This document shows positions 3,869 to 58,673 of a stretch of DNA of 64,000 nt, piece after piece. The number at the start of each line of letters is the position of its first letter. Within the stretch, counting starts at the first letter, position 1. Under the pieces are notes generated by a model. It was not told the DNA's origin. It worked only from the letters and a program-made list of their open reading frames with translations, and made no database searches. Position numbers and translations under genes: made by a program. The DNA is taken from assembly GCA_964016885.1 (NCBI GenBank), contig OZ024743.1, forward strand, positions 294,934,001-294,998,000, read 5' to 3'. Source of the stretch: Eledone cirrhosa. Lineage: Eukaryota.

Positions 3869-6800
3869 CTACAGCCTGATATAGAGAGAAGGCCCATTCA
3901 CTCAGGCCATTCTCGCCACTTTCACCCACCTTTCATAAAACTTCCTGGGGTACAGCACCTCTCTCTCCATCCTGATTCTTCTTCTAAAGGGGTATTTGAA
4001 AAAAAGAATCAGTTGTTGGCCGGAGAGAGAGGTGTCTGACCTCAGCCCTTTCAACCTTGTCCATCATACAACCTCTTTCGCCATAGCTATCACACAAAGG
4101 AAAACCGCCTCTCCTTCGTTTTTGAAGGCGAGTGGCGGTTTGATCATGACATTGGCCTCGGTGGTCAACCGGATTGGTCCCACCTGCGACAATAGTCGTT
4201 CTACATAGCCCCACAGGTCGGTAACGCCCGGGTAGTGTATGAATGCGTGCGCGACGGTTTCTTCGTCACGCACACACCTCGGACACATCTTTTTTTCATG
4301 GTCCCTGCCCGGGCGCCCATGTCTGTAGAGCTTGTCTCGAACTGGTAGAGCTCCTCGGTAGCACTGCCAGGCCAGGGACTTTTGGAAGTTGTGCATCGGT
4401 CCCGGGTGGAAGGTCCTACCGAACAGACTGGCCAGTTCGTCTTCCTCTACGCCTAGAGTTTCCCCGAGCGCGTCATCGCACTTGCTGCAGATCAACCCTC
4501 TATAGAATGACGAAGTGGAGTCTCCACTGATCGCCGGTTCCGCCTGCCAGAGGGCTGTGAGCGACTGAGCACGTTCGATGTGCCAGTCGCCCATTTTCCT
4601 CGGTCTTTGCTTGACCCAGGCCTGCAGCTTGTCCAGCGAGACGAGTCGTGGGAAGGTTCGCATCACGAACCGGTTGTCCGGTGAGGAATACGTAGAGATG
4701 CCGCAGCCTGAGCGCGGGTTTGCGCACGTCAGCCACGGCAACCCCAGCCCACCGTTGGAAGGGTGTTGGCAGTAGTTAGATCTTCTCACCAAAAAAGCCC
4801 GCCTCTTCCAAAGGAATTGGAAGAGCGCGCGCTCCATTTTGGTGAGCGTTTTGGCTGGACAAGGCACGAAGGTCAAGCGGTAGTAGATGATGGACGCTAT
4901 AAAAGTGTTCGCCACTTCCGCTCGACCTGTCAAGGATAGTTTGCACTCGGCCTACTTCTGGGTGAGTGAAAACACCTTGGCCGTCACCTCGTTCCAGTTA
5001 TTCTCCACCTGGTGGTCCGGACCAAACCAGACCCCGAGCAGCTTTGCCGGTCCTTCCGTCCAGCGTCCGACGATGCCCTCGGAAGGTATCGGCCTGCCTC
5101 TCCACAATCTGAGTTGCAAACCGATGAACTTGTCCCGGTTCAGCTTCGCTCCTGTGAACCTTTCGTATTCCTTCAGTAAGGTACCGACTTCCTCGATTTG
5201 CGAGGCGCTCGACACCATTACTGACACGTCGTCGGCGTAAGCCTACGCCGCTTTCCGTAGTCCCGGTTCCAGAGGGATGCCCTGCAATAGCTCCAACTTC
5301 CGCAGTAATGGCTCGAGAGTCAGTACGTACAGAAGGGGGGAGAGAAGGCATCCTTGTCGAATGGAACGGCTCTGAGAGGTAGCCGTTCACCTTGACCCTT
5401 GAGCAGATGTTGCTGACGTGCATTGCAGCAATCCAGCCCCTTACCAAGGCTCCGAAGCCTGCCGGTTCGAGCAGCGCATCCAGGTAACGATGGTCAACCC
5501 TATCGAAAGCCTTAGACTGATCCAAGTTGATCAGGGCCCCATCGAAGCCGGGTTTACACCCTACGCTCTCTATGATGTATCGCATGAGGTGGAGGTTGTC
5601 GTGTATGGACCTGGTCGGGATTGCGCATGTCTGCGCTTCTCCCACCAGGTTCTCGACGACAAGCGCCAGCCTCTTTGCCAACACCTTGGCCAGAATCTGT
5701 AACTCTGTGTTTAGCAGAGTTATGGGCCGGAAGTTGCCTAAGTCAACCCCCTTAATCTTGTCCTTCCTGACTAGTGTGACTACGCCCCCGGTCACAGAAC
5801 TGGCAATTCTCCCGTTCTGTTGCCAGTTGCAGTAGACCGCTTCCAGGAGACCGGAGAATAAGTCCGGCATTTCTACGTAAAATTCGTAGGGTAGACCGTC
5901 GAGACCTGGAGATTTGCGTTTGCCGCATTGGCTCAGCGCGTCCCCTATCTCAGCGGCTGAAATCGGCTTAACGCAGCATTCGCCTCCCTGCCCGAGAGTC
6001 GCGATAGGCCGTCGAGGTATGGACCGAAATACATAGCCCCTCCCGGCGGGCCGCCCTGCCCGAACAGTTGAGCAAAGTGCCGCTGAAAGGCCGCACACAT
6101 CTGCTGCGGCTCACGTTCATTCGTCCGTCTTGGTCCTTCAAAGACCGAATCGTGGACTTGTTGCCACTTTTTGCCTCCGTCACTCAGGCCCAGCTAACAG
6201 CTTTGGCTCCCTCGTTTCCCAGAGCACGTATTTTGCTTCTGACAACGCAGCCCTCGTGCTTTGCGTCGAAGAACTGGTCCAAGGCCGTTCTCGTTGCTAG
6301 TACGCTGGCTACGTTACCACTTCTAATTGCCTCTTCTATTTATCTACCAGTTCCTTCTCGGTTCTATTTCTATCTAACGCTAATTCTTTACTAAAACTTA
6401 ACGAGTCTAATCTAACTTCCCCCTTGAGAGAGTACCACCATCTGTTGTTGACAATGGCCCCTGTCAAGTGCTGTTTAACTAAAGTGCTAATCTGTCTACT
6501 GTAGGCTTTGCATGTCGGTAACGACAAGTTCAGCTTCCAGTAGCCGGGTCCTTGTCTATGGGTTCTATCAAGGTTGACCATGCAGGTCACTAGTTTGTGA
6601 TCTGAATAGGCAACCATGATCATTTGTGGACAGCTTAACATGTCCCTATCCTTATTTCTAACCAGAACCCTATCTAGGTACGATTTAGATGTTCCGCGAC
6701 GATTAGTCCACGTCCACAGTGGCACATTCGGAAAATCTAGTCGATATCTATCGGCCAGGTCAAATTGGCTGATTAACTGTTTGAGGCTGTTACACCCCCC

Positions 6801-7269
6801 TTTATCGGGCCATGCTCCCACATAGTTCCAACGTGCATCTAGGATTCCATTCCAGTCCCCCACTAAAAGCAAGTAGCGGGACGTTCCCAGAAAAGTCTCT
6901 AGACGTTTGAAGAAGTCTGGCCGAGGTGTCCCAGATGGGGCATATGCGGCCACCAGCCTGAAGGCTCCACCTTCACTACCGTCAACATCAAGGACCACCA
7001 GTCGTCTCTCCGGGTCCAGATGTACCGTCTGTGTTACGAGACCCAGGTGTTTCCGCAGCAAAACGGCACCCCCCCCCCGACTGACAGAGAGACGCATAAA
7101 TCTCAAAGTCATCGAAGATGGGGGCCAGCTGTCGCTCGCTGTGGATCCTGGACTCGCAAATGGCTACTACATCCATACTGTGCGACCTGAGGTCGTTTAA
7201 GAGTTTGCCCTGTTTCCAGGGCTTCCCCAGGCCGCGTACATTCACACATCCAACTCTTATATTGGCCAT
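3869..7269 (-). pseudogene. Tx1-like ORF2 (APE endonuclease, reverse transcriptase, C-terminal zinc finger), frameshifted
   Basis: NVRGL, ICES, LVGDWN, SYLDR and SDHK (APE); KSPGLDGLPYEFY, NFRPITLLNTE, LDQSKAFDRVDH, RQGC and YADDV (RT); CPRCVRDEETVAH (zf-RVT); split over ORFs 6988-7269, 6336-7112, 4998-6098, 4952-5227 and 4064-4933. Confidence 0.93.
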
Positions 7270-10856: not shown

Positions 10857-10887
<31 letters not shown>

Positions 10888-10890
<3 letters not shown>

Positions 10891-11160
10891 ACAAAGGAAG
10901 TGTGGTAAGGAACTAGATGGACCATAACGCACCAGAGTACTCAATACTTAGGGTAGTAGAGTGGGTAATAGGGAAATAGCCGTCGAAACGGCTTGAGCTC
11001 TGCCGTCGGGGTTAAACATTTTCCTATATATATATATATATATATTGGAAATGGTCTGGACACGAAGGCTGAGTTCTTGGCGTTTCAACAGCTAATCCCA
11101 GATTTGAATTAGCCGTCGAAACAGCAAGAGTATAGCCGTCGGACTCCGACTCTTTCTAAT
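10888..11160. mobile_element. Fragments of the U3-A8 hammerhead pLTR family with inverted pieces
   Basis: Homologous to 47941-48075; carries the 3' half TAGCCGTC-GAAA-CGGC..GCCG-TC-GGGGT. Confidence 0.75.
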
Positions 11161-11269
11161 ATATTCACACTCTACTATCACATTTATCGAGTAATCTGCT
11201 AAATAATGGGTTTACAAATTTATACATATATCAACAATTTAAATACGCTATGCTTTAAATTCAGGGAGT

Positions 11270-35565: not shown

Positions 35566-35614
35566 GAATATATATGTATATATATATATCCATATAAATA
35601 TATATATATATATA

Positions 35615-35719
35615 TAGGAACCAGTAAGACCCCGACAGCTGACTACCCACTCTACTACCCCAAGTATTGAGTACTTTGGTGCGTTATGGTCCACCTGGTT
35701 CCTTACCACATTTCCTTCG

Positions 35720-35722
<3 letters not shown>
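35615..35722 (-). mobile_element. Fragments of the U3-A8 pLTR family between (TA)n tracts
   Basis: Homologous to 47941-48048 in mixed orientation. Confidence 0.75.
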
Positions 35723-35773
<51 letters not shown>

Positions 35774-39606: not shown

Positions 39607-40486
39607 AGAGAGAGGGGGTAGAGAGAGTAAGAGAAATATAGAGAGAGAGAGACGGGGGTGGAGTAAATAGTGAGAGAGAGGATGAGAGAGGATAAGAGTG
39701 GAGGAGTTAGAGATAATGTGATCCTGCTTTTAGATGTATTTCTTCCTTTGCCACGACTTCCACACCCATCATTTTCAATTTCACCACTTAAATCTACCGA
39801 ATATACTCAGGCTTGTGGTAACAGCTTTTCAGTCACAAGCTACTTTCATAATATAGGAAAATCTAAAGAGAACATGTGATTGTAAAAAATGTATATATGA
39901 AGTAAAATGAAGTAATAACCTAGCAGAGCCATCAAATCATTGTTTATTTTTTCATGCGAGGATAAATCTGAAGGAAAGCACATTTTAGGGTTTGAATGCT
40001 TTTTATAAATGTGTAGATTCTATGTGCAAATATATAGATACACATGCACGCATTCACACACGCGCAATCACTCACACATATATTCATTCGTACTCTCACA
40101 TACACGTAAGTACACATATGTGCCTGAGTCTACACTTGTGCTGCGTGTGCGTCAGTAAAACTCTACGTAAATGTATTTATATTTGGATTGTCATATACGT
40201 ATATGTTCAAATATTATATCTAACCTGTCTCTCTCACTCTTTCTTTCTTTCTTTCTCTGTCTCTTTGTCTCTCTCTGTCTCTCTCTCTCTCACTCTGTAT
40301 ATATATATAGAGAGAGAGAGTGAGAGACAGGGAGATAGAGATACATGTGTGTGTGTGTACGTGTGATTCTGCAAAAAAGCTGCGTTTGAGTAAATCATAT
40401 ATATTTACCGTTTTATTTGCCATCTCATCCCAACTAGTATGCGTATATATATGTACGTGGTTATATATATATATATATATATATTT

Positions 40487-40614
40487 AACGAAGGAGTTGT
40501 GGTAAGGAGCCAGATGGACCATAACGCACCAGAGTATTCAATACTTAGGCTAGTAGAGGGGGTAATAGGAAAAAGTATGACCCCGACGGCAGAGCTCAAG
40601 CCGTTTCGGCGGCT
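40487..40614 (-). mobile_element. Fragment of the U3-A8 pLTR family (3' half of the HHR)
   Basis: Homologous to 47941-48072; bounded by (TA)n on both sides. Confidence 0.8.
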
Positions 40615-40815
40615 ATATATATATGTATATTGATTTATTTATTTATTTATTTATACACGTGCACACATGCATCACACACACATGCATGCCACACACACAC
40701 AAACATACATACATATATATGTATATATATATATATATATATAAAGAAAAAGGGATGAAATCGAAAATGCAACTGAAGTCTTATTTTTTTTTTAAATATA
40801 TATATTTATTTGGTT

Positions 40816-46604: not shown

Positions 46605-46614
46605 TGTATATAAA

Positions 46615-46790
46615 ACGAGGGAAGAGTGGTAAGTAACCAGCTGGACCATAACGCACCAAAGTGCTCGATACTGGGTAGTAGAGTGGGTAATAGGAAAAGA
46701 GTCAGGACCCCGACGGTGGGCTCCGGCCGTTTCGTTCAGACCTAGCTGTCGAAACGGCCGGAGCTCAGCCGTCGGTGTCCGGACTCTTTT

Positions 46791-46794
<4 letters not shown>
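46615..46794. mobile_element. U3-A8 pLTR family fragment with terminal fold-back
   Basis: Homologous to 47941-48065; 46691-46734 is inverted at 46750-46794. Confidence 0.75.
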
Positions 46795-47893: not shown

Positions 47894-47944
<51 letters not shown>

Positions 47945-48035
47945 CGAAGGAAATGTGGTAAGGAACCAGGTGGACCATAACGCACCAAAGTACTCAATAC
48001 TTGAGGTAGTAGAGTGGGTAATAGGAACCAGTAAG

Positions 48036-48129
48036 ACCCCGACAGCTGAGCTCAAGCCGTTTCGACGGCTAATTCTGGACTAAATGAAAATTTATCCTGG
48101 TATTTAAATAGCCGATCTTCTCAAGGGGT
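48036..48129 (-). ncRNA. Type I hammerhead, U3-A8 core
   Basis: Mirror copy of 48391-48484. Confidence 0.82.
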
Positions 48130-48390
48130 AATTCCATATATGGTCAAAGTGATTGTCAAAAATCAGTAGTAATTCTGTGGTTGCAAATTAGTAGGGGAGA
48201 TGGTGGCTAAACCTGCCAGTAGGAGAAAAAGGGGAGGGGGTGGAGTAGACCCAATCAACGCTTGATTGGGTCTACTCCACCCCCTCCCCTCTTTCTCCTA
48301 CTGGCAGGTTTAGCCACCATCTCCCCTACTAATTTGCAACCACAGAATTACTACTGATTTTTGACAATCACTTTGACCATATATGGAATT

Positions 48391-48484
48391 ACCCCTTGAG
48401 AAGATCGGCTATTTAAATACCAGGATAAATTTTCATTTAGTCCAGAATTAGCCGTCGAAACGGCTTGAGCTCAGCTGTCGGGGT
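48391..48484 (+). ncRNA. Type I hammerhead, U3-A8 core, extended stem II
   Basis: ACCCC-TTGAGAA-GA t CGGCTA..TAGCCG TC-GAAA-CGGC ttgagctca GCTG-TC-GGGGT; GUC triplet. Confidence 0.82.
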
Positions 48485-48494
48485 CTTACTGGTT

Positions 48495-48552
<58 letters not shown>

Positions 48553-51796: not shown

Positions 51797-51990
51797 AGAA
51801 AAATCCAGATAAAAAATGTCATACTTCATTATCACAACTAATATGGTCTTTAAAAGAGAAAAATATTAAATACTCAATTTCTTGGTATAAACTTAAGTTT
51901 TCTTATTCCTATCGGAACGCTTCAATTTCACCAAACTACAATCTTTGCAATTTAGAAACTCTTAATAATTACCAAGGGAAAACATATTGA
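51797..51990 (+). pseudogene. Penelope-like (Naiad-type) GIY-YIG C-terminal fragment
   Basis: TSLSQLIWSLKEKNIKYSISWYKL..SY..NLCNLE. Confidence 0.7.
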
Positions 51991-58626: not shown

Positions 58627-58673
58627 ATTCTACAGGACTAGAACTGTTTCATTCGTGAGAAATCATCAGAAAT
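58627..58673 (-). ncRNA. Type I hammerhead ribozyme upstream of the PLE ORF
   Basis: Reverse complement: ATTT-CTGATGA-T TTC tcac GAA T-GAAA-CAG ttctagtc CTG-TA-GAAT. Confidence 0.85.

What the first reader, a model, noticed from the sequence alone, without database searches (positions are those of the whole stretch)
48391..48484. Abundant pLTR-like family built on a U3-A8 hammerhead with a palindromic loop III
ACCCC-UUGAGAA-GA(U)CGGCUA..UAGCCGUC-GAAA-CGGC-uUGAGCUCA-GCUG-UC-GGGGU is a complete fold with GUC site, U3-A8 swap, a ~37-nt stem II loop and a self-complementary UGAGCUCA in loop III. Fragments recur at 10888-11160, 35615-35722, 40487-40614 and 46615-46794, with stem III kept as CGGC/GCCG or CGGC/GCUG. 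It is the most repeated ribozyme family in the window, but only this locus retains the core, and a CUGANGA search would miss it.
Basis: partly seen in the sequence, partly recalled or inferred. Interest (0 to 1): 0.8.

Follow-up and report, generated by a model that had tools for sequence, protein, structure and literature searches.

The report
Shifting hammerhead core in Penelope retroelement
This is a real hammerhead-shaped RNA motif carried by a very abundant young jumping gene of a known kind; its U-A core swap is already in print, but older subfamilies of the same element kept spreading with a mispaired core, which suggests that self-cutting is likely not essential for jumping.

Summary
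Confirmed: 48391-48484 is a complete type I hammerhead with a U3-A8 core. It is the pseudo-LTR of a Hydra-clade Penelope-like element: 3.54-kb tandem units, a 719-aa telomerase-like RT plus GIY-YIG ORF, and 52,348 exact genomic matches to the 3' half. Of 6,586 core matches, 4,954 are U3-A8, 1,521 are mispaired C3·A8 and 8 are C3-G8. U3-A8 in Penelope hammerheads was published in 2014, so the headline feature is not new. What looks new is a tree built from the ORF alone: G8 lineages, then U3-A8, then C3·A8, then U3-A8 again. The C3·A8 subfamilies are predicted to misfold, yet their ORF stayed under purifying selection. Insertions end about 20 or 100 nt past the cut site, not at it. Cleavage is untested and no RNA data were available. 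This copy is probably inert. Stem III is stable in a monomer, so obligate dimer cleavage is unlikely.

The parts
48391..48484 (+). Type I hammerhead motif, U3-A8 core; predicted cut after C17 at 48479
48396..48402 (+). Core UUGAGAA (U3 48396, N7 48400, A8 48401)
48403..48456 (+). Stem II (G10.1-C11.1, small internal loop, CGGCUA/UAGCCG) with a 37-nt loop that can form an inner hairpin
48460..48478 (+). Stem III (5 bp) with 9-nt loop; palindrome UGAGCUCA at 48466-48473
48036..48129 (-). Second, identical hammerhead on the opposite strand (predicted cut after 48041)
48262..48499 (+). Right arm: inverted, 5'-truncated pLTR copy ending at the short 3' end (about 20 nt after C17) in (TA)n
48021..48258 (-). 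Left arm: 5'-truncated pLTR copy, exact complement of the right arm
47942..48020 (-). Tail present at one end only; ends at the long 3' end (about 100 nt after C17) in (TA)n
10885..11045 (.). Tail plus inverted 3' half of an older subfamily; no core
11106..11193 (+). Degenerate 3' half of a diverged copy; no core
35614..35726 (.). Minimal insertion: last 29 nt inverted against the tail; no core and no whole stem III
40486..40615 (-). 3' half and tail of an older subfamily; no core
46614..46794 (.). Inverted pair of 3' halves from the older sister family (loop III CGGAGCUCA); no core

Best explanation
The motif is the hammerhead in the pseudo-LTR of the youngest subfamily of a Hydra-clade Penelope-like retrotransposon, and it is likely a slow or protein-assisted self-cutter whose cut is probably not needed for insertion. 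Shown: the fold, the linked intact ORF in 3.54-kb tandem units, insertion into (TA)n, two fixed 3' ends about 20 and 100 nt past the cut site, and an order of core states on the ORF tree (G8, then U3-A8, then C3·A8, then U3-A8). Inferred from published work on another PLE: the element's protein nicks (TA)n and starts reverse transcription inside the RNA at these two ends, so it copies uncut or re-joined RNA straight through the ribozyme; early stalling and strand switching give short inverted inserts like this one. Inferred: cutting, where it happens, trims tandem transcripts into units; it gives a modest advantage, enough to hold the core and to restore U3, but the lineage kept multiplying through a phase when the 3-8 pair was broken. 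This window copy is probably inert, because a read-through RNA would fold into a 238-bp duplex.
For: Five cores at 3,542-3,543-bp spacing, units differing by 2-7 mismatches. An open frame of 786 codons (719 aa from the first Met) starts at the hammerhead; model pLDDT 93, best fold match telomerase TERT, E 2.4e-8; Hydra-clade motifs present (against PMC8557442). With the core left free in the pattern, the first 100 of 5,586 matches have U4 100, G5 99, A6 100, A8 100, A9 100, while N7 takes all four bases and N3 is U 77, C 22, G 1 (my count). The ~120-140 nt ending just past the hammerhead are 79-94% identical to the reference across older subfamilies, while whole-UTR matches of B and C copies are about 67-82%. 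Stem II has 3 pairs changed on both sides against the sister family. Of 228 distinct copies, 117 end 15-25 nt and 93 end 95-106 nt past C17, 1 within 10 nt; independent DNA runs show (TA)n joined at the same ends. ORF tree of 23 copies: one clade of U3-A8 copies is rejected (p-AU 4e-85), key branches 100/99; a pLTR tree with position 3 masked gives the same broad order. Fixed ORF differences are mostly silent (A vs C 76:20; C vs D 15:5), private ones are not (61:101; 36:53). Median predicted probability of the open-core fold: E 0.23 (6 copies), C/D 0.01 (19), B 0.07 (11), A 0.46 (8). In vitro, hammerhead mutants of an anole PLE still insert, and the ribozyme needs the protein (PMC11167929).
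Against: No cleavage data. Folding energy is not better than shuffles. The predicted fold depends on context: stem probabilities are about 0.75-0.95 with 50 nt upstream, near 0.01-0.06 with 100 nt upstream, and 0.39-0.47 with 100 nt upstream plus the tail. Stems I and III show no change on both sides, and the stem II covariation is essentially one event among related sequences. Arm-to-arm divergence orders A 0.7% < B 1.9% < C 2.8% but does not separate D (3.5-6.1%) from E (3.5%), with 3-4 pairs each. The root rests on 3 G8 copies; a protein tree with distant outgroups put the root inside the C3·A8 part, with weak support. I could not read the biochemical papers on 3-8 exchanges, so the cost of C3·A8 is inferred from other mismatches and from recall.
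Confidence: 0.72

Rival explanations
1. The motif no longer cuts in any subfamily. It is kept as a folded handle that the element's protein binds to place the two starts of reverse transcription.
For: Insertions do not end at the cut site. The lineage passed through U3·G8, C3·A8 and an A·C mismatch in stem II. The 3' half is far more common than the core.
Against: U4, G5, A6, A8 and A9 stay fixed while N7 drifts through all four bases, the pattern expected of a catalytic core. The newest changes (C3 to U, the base after G10.1 to A, GCCG to GCUG in stem III) go with a higher predicted probability of the active fold. The core lies 80-160 nt upstream of the two starts.
Confidence: 0.17
2. It cuts only as a dimer, two copies pairing through the palindromic loop III, as minimal PLE hammerheads do.
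For: A GAGCUC palindrome is the commonest loop III in every subfamily and in the sister family. A self-dimer of stem-loop III is predicted 14-16.5 kcal/mol below two monomers, concentration ignored. Tandem arrays exist.
Against: Stem III has 5 bp and a 9-nt loop and forms with probability about 0.75 in a monomer, unlike the 1-2-bp stems described for dimer-dependent motifs (PMC4209133). Neighbouring copies in an array are 3.5 kb apart.
Confidence: 0.15
3. C3·A8 is a tolerated wobble pair, so all subfamilies cut well enough and the U/C switch at position 3 is neutral drift.
For: Position 3 is almost only U or C and position 8 stays A. The C3·A8 subfamilies reached 1,521 core matches with the rest of the core intact.
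Against: C3 also favours a slipped stem I that pairs the core with the cut site (median probability 0.62 against 0.06 in subfamily A). Single changes at 3 or 8 abolished cutting in the anole PLE ribozyme, though with other bases.
Confidence: 0.25
4. C3·A8 copies are dead or passenger copies, made by mutation after insertion or carried by U3-A8 masters.
For: Most fetched C3·A8 ORFs carry stops or frameshifts.
Against: They share diagnostic flanking changes, lie on the trunk of the ORF tree and show silent-biased fixed differences. Both arms of an insertion carry C3. 23% is far above what 2-3% divergence would give; C3-G8 arises from them at only 8 of 1,529.
Confidence: 0.05

Closest known systems
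Hydra clade of Penelope-like elements (Craig et al. 2021, PMC8557442; read: abstract, Introduction, the Hydra and RT/EN sections, passages, supplement parts 1, 2 and 7 of 59)
   Same: C-terminal GIY-YIG endonuclease, RW(K/R), DKT, CxCx5C linker, CxxC and CxH around the conserved E and N, no CCHH motif, (TA)n target, 3' type I hammerhead, tandem and inverted copies with a tail at one end.
   Different: All 26 Hydra hammerhead rows in their File S2 have a C3-G8 core, short loop II (3-10 nt) and loop III of 1-3 nt. Here the core is U3-A8 or C3·A8, loop II is 37-39 nt and loop III 9 nt. The unit is 3.54 kb against 'generally <3 kb', and the tail about 80 nt against 30-40.
U3-A8 minimal hammerheads of Schistosoma mansoni Cercyon PLEs (Cervera and de la Peña 2014, PMC4209133; read: parts 1-2 of 4 of the text; its supplements were not opened)
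   Same: Type I motif in the pLTR, U3-A8 instead of C3-G8, large stem II, 5-bp stem I, G10.1-C11.1, palindromic loop III, mostly truncated copies, close pairs on opposite strands.
   Different: Those have almost no stem III and work poorly even as dimers; about 1,300 hits. Here stem III is full, the host clade differs, and the core state can be followed across subfamilies.
Poseidon element PAc of the green anole (Frangieh et al. 2024, PMC11167929; read: parts 1-2 of 4)
   Same: Two internal starts of reverse transcription bounding a tail, AT-rich target, hammerhead just upstream of the starts, insertions not ending at the cut.
   Different: Canonical C3-G8 core, Penelope/Poseidon clade. Dispensability was shown there in vitro; here it is inferred from genome history.
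Natural U3-A8 hammerheads (Perreault et al. 2011, PMC3088659; read: passages)
   Same: U3-A8 covariation in nature, cited as active in vitro.
   Different: The passages seen mention no amplified C3·A8 mismatch.

Membership tests
Type I hammerhead ribozyme | Three helices around the core, open at stem I | tested here: met
Type I hammerhead ribozyme | Core U4 G5 A6 N7, A9, G12 A13 A14, A15.1-U16.1, H17 | tested here: met
Type I hammerhead ribozyme | Watson-Crick pair between positions 3 and 8 | tested here: met
   U3-A8 in this copy and in 4,954 of 6,586 matches; not met in 1,521 C3·A8 matches of older subfamilies
Type I hammerhead ribozyme | Compensatory changes in helices | tested here: inconclusive
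   3 pairs in stem II, essentially one event; none in stems I and III
Type I hammerhead ribozyme | Self-cleavage after H17 | not testable with these tools
   needs a bench assay
Minimal (dimer-dependent) PLE hammerhead | Stem III absent or 1-2 bp with a tiny palindromic loop | tested here: not met
   5-bp stem III, 9-nt loop, probability about 0.75 in a monomer
Penelope-like elements | Single ORF with telomerase-like RT | tested here: met
   719-aa ORF; best fold match TERT; Pfam gave no family for it, one of 7 homologues scanned hits RVT_1 below the cut-off
Penelope-like elements | C-terminal GIY-YIG endonuclease | tested here: met
   VIY at 591 and YIG at 606, on two strands of the model; motif-level evidence, no separate fold search of the domain
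Penelope-like elements | Tandem units, pLTRs, inverted truncated copies, tail at one end | tested here: met
Hydra clade | RWK-like motif, DKT instead of DKG, CxCx5C linker, CxxC and CxH, no CCHH | tested here: met
Hydra clade | Insertion into (TA)n | tested here: met
Hydra clade | RT phylogeny places it inside the clade | not tested
   reference proteins in the supplement were cut and were not aligned; likeness of the N-terminal part to Hydra-1_Obim is by eye only
Hydra clade | Canonical (C3-G8) hammerhead | tested here: not met
   U3-A8 here; canonical in 26 of 26 published rows and in the 5 metagenome relatives with a detected motif, of 8 loci. A described trait, not the clade's definition

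The most novel reading that the evidence does not exclude
One autonomous retrotransposon lineage largely lost its ribozyme activity (C3·A8 plus misfolding), still spread to well over a thousand core-bearing copies, and then rebuilt an active U3-A8 ribozyme in three steps. Its fossil copies would record a full walk of the catalytic 3-8 pair (C-G, U·G, U-A, C·A, U-A): a natural in vivo test showing that hammerhead cutting helps Penelope elements but is not required.
Probability: 0.35. Interest if true: 0.72.

Novelty: new variant of a known kind. Interest (0 to 1): 0.45.

Why it matters
What hammerheads do for Penelope-like elements is openly stated as unclear (PMC8557442), and dispensability has been shown only in vitro for one element (PMC11167929). 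This family offers an ordered series of natural variants of one ribozyme, each attached to an ORF whose success can be counted in the genome. Measuring their cutting rates would link ribozyme activity to spread in vivo and show which intermediates a catalytic base pair can pass through. It also shows that CUGANGA searches miss an abundant element. The U3-A8 swap alone is ordinary.

Tried and rejected
DNA search of the genome with the 171-nt motif found nothing, because common words are skipped; patterns were used instead. Rfam listed no hammerhead among 150 of 311 matches shown. Pfam and PDB sequence searches did not name the ORF. No RNA holder was listed among public runs, which is no evidence on expression. 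Stem III probabilities had an index error and were redone; one search stopped after its first sequence. A pattern for the 11106 variant gave 3 matches, so it is not a family; a first pattern for the sister core gave 1 useful match of 6. The 8 C3-G8 matches were considered as an ancestral subfamily and rejected: the copies inspected fall among C and D types. A midpoint-rooted tree with a short degenerate fragment put the root inside C3·A8; I set it aside after G8 outgroups were found. In the pLTR tree two U3 copies (L101, L105) nest inside C; a second reversion is possible but not claimed. Three papers were not held (PMC5785218, PMC1986816, PMC2271363); they may already describe C3·A8 rates or variants. 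Searches for C3·A8, U3·G8 or G8A/C3U hammerhead variants and for loss of ribozyme activity in PLE subfamilies found nothing relevant; the library lacks most subscription journals. Look-ups of earlier findings by place and by sequence were empty.

Full report
The observation. The motif is as described: stem I 48391-48395/48480-48484, core UUGAGAA at 48396-48402, stem II around a 37-nt loop, GAA, a 5-bp stem III with loop UUGAGCUCA, and C17 at 48479. The minimum-energy fold is the three-helix hammerhead, but it is no more stable than shuffles (z = -0.25), and Rfam lists no hammerhead among the 150 of 311 matches shown. Both ends run into (TA)n. The four fragments are real and none has the core; one belongs to an older sister family.

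The family. In the 3.0-Gb genome a 24-mer of the 3' half matches 52,348 times against 0 for the control. These are arms, not insertions: of the first 30 loci, 22 have an inverted family piece within 400 nt upstream and only 7 keep the core. Full-length copies exist. At G000:C1:91.47-91.49 Mb five cores lie 3,542-3,543 bp apart and the units differ by 2-7 mismatches. Each unit has an open frame that starts at the hammerhead, 719 aa from the first Met. Pfam does not name it, but a confident model (pLDDT 93) has telomerase TERT as best fold match. It carries the motifs that PMC8557442 lists for the Hydra clade: RW(K/R), DKT, CxCx5C, CxxC, CxH, no CCHH. I did not place it on a reference RT tree.

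Is U3-A8 the norm? With positions 3, 7 and 8 free, 6,586 cores match: 4,954 U3-A8, 1,521 C3·A8, 8 C3-G8, 103 other. With the whole core free, the first 100 of 5,586 matches keep U4, A6, A8 and A9 in 100 and G5 in 99, while N7 is G 76, U 13, A 8, C 3 and N3 is U 77, C 22, G 1 (my count). This is the conservation pattern of a hammerhead core. The motif region is also better kept than the UTR upstream of it. An older sister family has U3-A8 with three stem II pairs changed on both sides; this is essentially one event, and stems I and III show none.

History of the core. A tree of 23 copies built on the 3' 1,257 nt of the ORF, without the ribozyme, is a ladder: three G8 copies, then U3-A8 (E), then C3·A8 (D, C), then U3-A8 (B, and A, the window's subfamily). 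The branches into C3·A8 and back are 100/100 and 100/99; a single U3-A8 clade is rejected (p-AU 4e-85). Copies were chosen because they kept an ORF end next to a core. A pLTR tree with position 3 masked gives the same broad order. Divergence between the two arms of an insertion rises from A 0.7% (21 pairs, some from one locus) to B 1.9% (7) and C 2.8% (8, one duplicated); D (3.5% and 6.1%, 3 pairs each) and E (3.5%, 4) are not separated. Fixed ORF differences between subfamilies are mostly silent (A vs C 76:20, B vs C 27:11, C vs D 15:5), private ones are not, so the C3·A8 elements were the replicating lineage. G8 occurs in 7 of the first 100 of 407 matches of the older stem II type: 5 with U3, 1 with C3, 1 with A3; one of these is a sporadic change in a sister-family arm. 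The oldest state is therefore thinly sampled, and a protein tree with distant outgroups placed the root differently, with weak support.

Predicted folding follows the same dip. Median probability of three helices with an open core: E 0.23, C/D 0.01, B 0.07, A 0.46. C3 favours a slipped stem I that buries the cut site, and an alternative GCCGU/ACGGC hairpin competes in B, C and D. These are isolated 94-96-nt folds. With 100 nt of upstream flank even subfamily A is predicted to misfold, so activity probably needs co-transcriptional folding or the protein.

How it likely works. Of 228 distinct copies, 117 end 15-25 nt and 93 end 95-106 nt past C17; 1 ends within 10 nt, 12 have no (TA)n within 140 nt, 5 end elsewhere. 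Contigs of independent runs show (TA)n joined at the same ends, and depth far higher at the tail than at the ORF start. This matches the two internal starts of reverse transcription shown for an anole PLE, where hammerhead mutants still inserted and the ribozyme needed the protein (PMC11167929). The template must be uncut or re-joined at the 3' hammerhead. I infer that cutting trims tandem transcripts and is helpful but not required. The window copy has no ORF and a read-through RNA would form a long duplex (stems I and II probability 0.0), so it is probably inert. The loop III palindrome is conserved and permits dimers, but a 5-bp stem III makes them unnecessary.

Comparison with what is known. 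PLE hammerheads with U3-A8 were described in 2014 (about 1,300 hits in Schistosoma, PMC4209133), and natural U3-A8 in 2011 (PMC3088659). Earlier notes of this scan on other genomes say the same. All 26 Hydra rows in File S2 of PMC8557442 are C3-G8 with tiny loop III, so this architecture is new for that clade as published there. My searches found no report of an amplified C3·A8 subfamily or of core states followed along one lineage, but three key papers were not available. The hammerhead position numbering and the expected cost of a C·A pair are from recall.

Verdict. Real, and a variant of a known kind. The ordered series of core states, with a mispaired phase in an active lineage, makes an open question testable. 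Interest 0.45.

Noticed in passing
window 1370+, 14995-, 22938-, 23254-, 28846+ (with an inverted relative at 28725-28614), 44726-, 47793+, 51534-, 58669-: Nine canonical CUGANGA hammerhead-like motifs from other repeat families; four have a palindromic (UA)n stem III. The one at 58669 lies 200 nt upstream of a Hydra-like ORF fragment.
   Followed up: partly
window 58460-58113, 51259-50996, 51799-51963: Degenerate fragments related to the element's ORF (33-43% identity), from older Penelope families.
   Followed up: no
window 4067-7163, minus strand: Three successive reading frames (275, 370, 295 aa) that look like a broken L1/Tx1-type LINE endonuclease and RT; assignment by eye and recall.
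   Followed up: no
L063:1173-4757: A 55-bp piece of the ORF is repeated head to tail more than 60 times at the 5' end of the tandem array, perhaps by RT slippage.
   Followed up: no
L243:2622+, L245:3985+: An older lineage has an A·C mismatch in stem II (CAGCUA/UAGCCG), intermediate between the A-U pair of the sister family and the G-C pair of later subfamilies, and a shorter 3' UTR (about 690 nt against about 1,100).
   Followed up: partly
L101, L105: U3-A8 copies with C-type flanks; either the intermediate between C and B or a second reversion.
   Followed up: partly
L197-L199, L201, L202: Metagenome relatives (37-44% protein identity) carry canonical C3-G8 hammerheads with tiny loop III downstream of the ORF.
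   Followed up: yes
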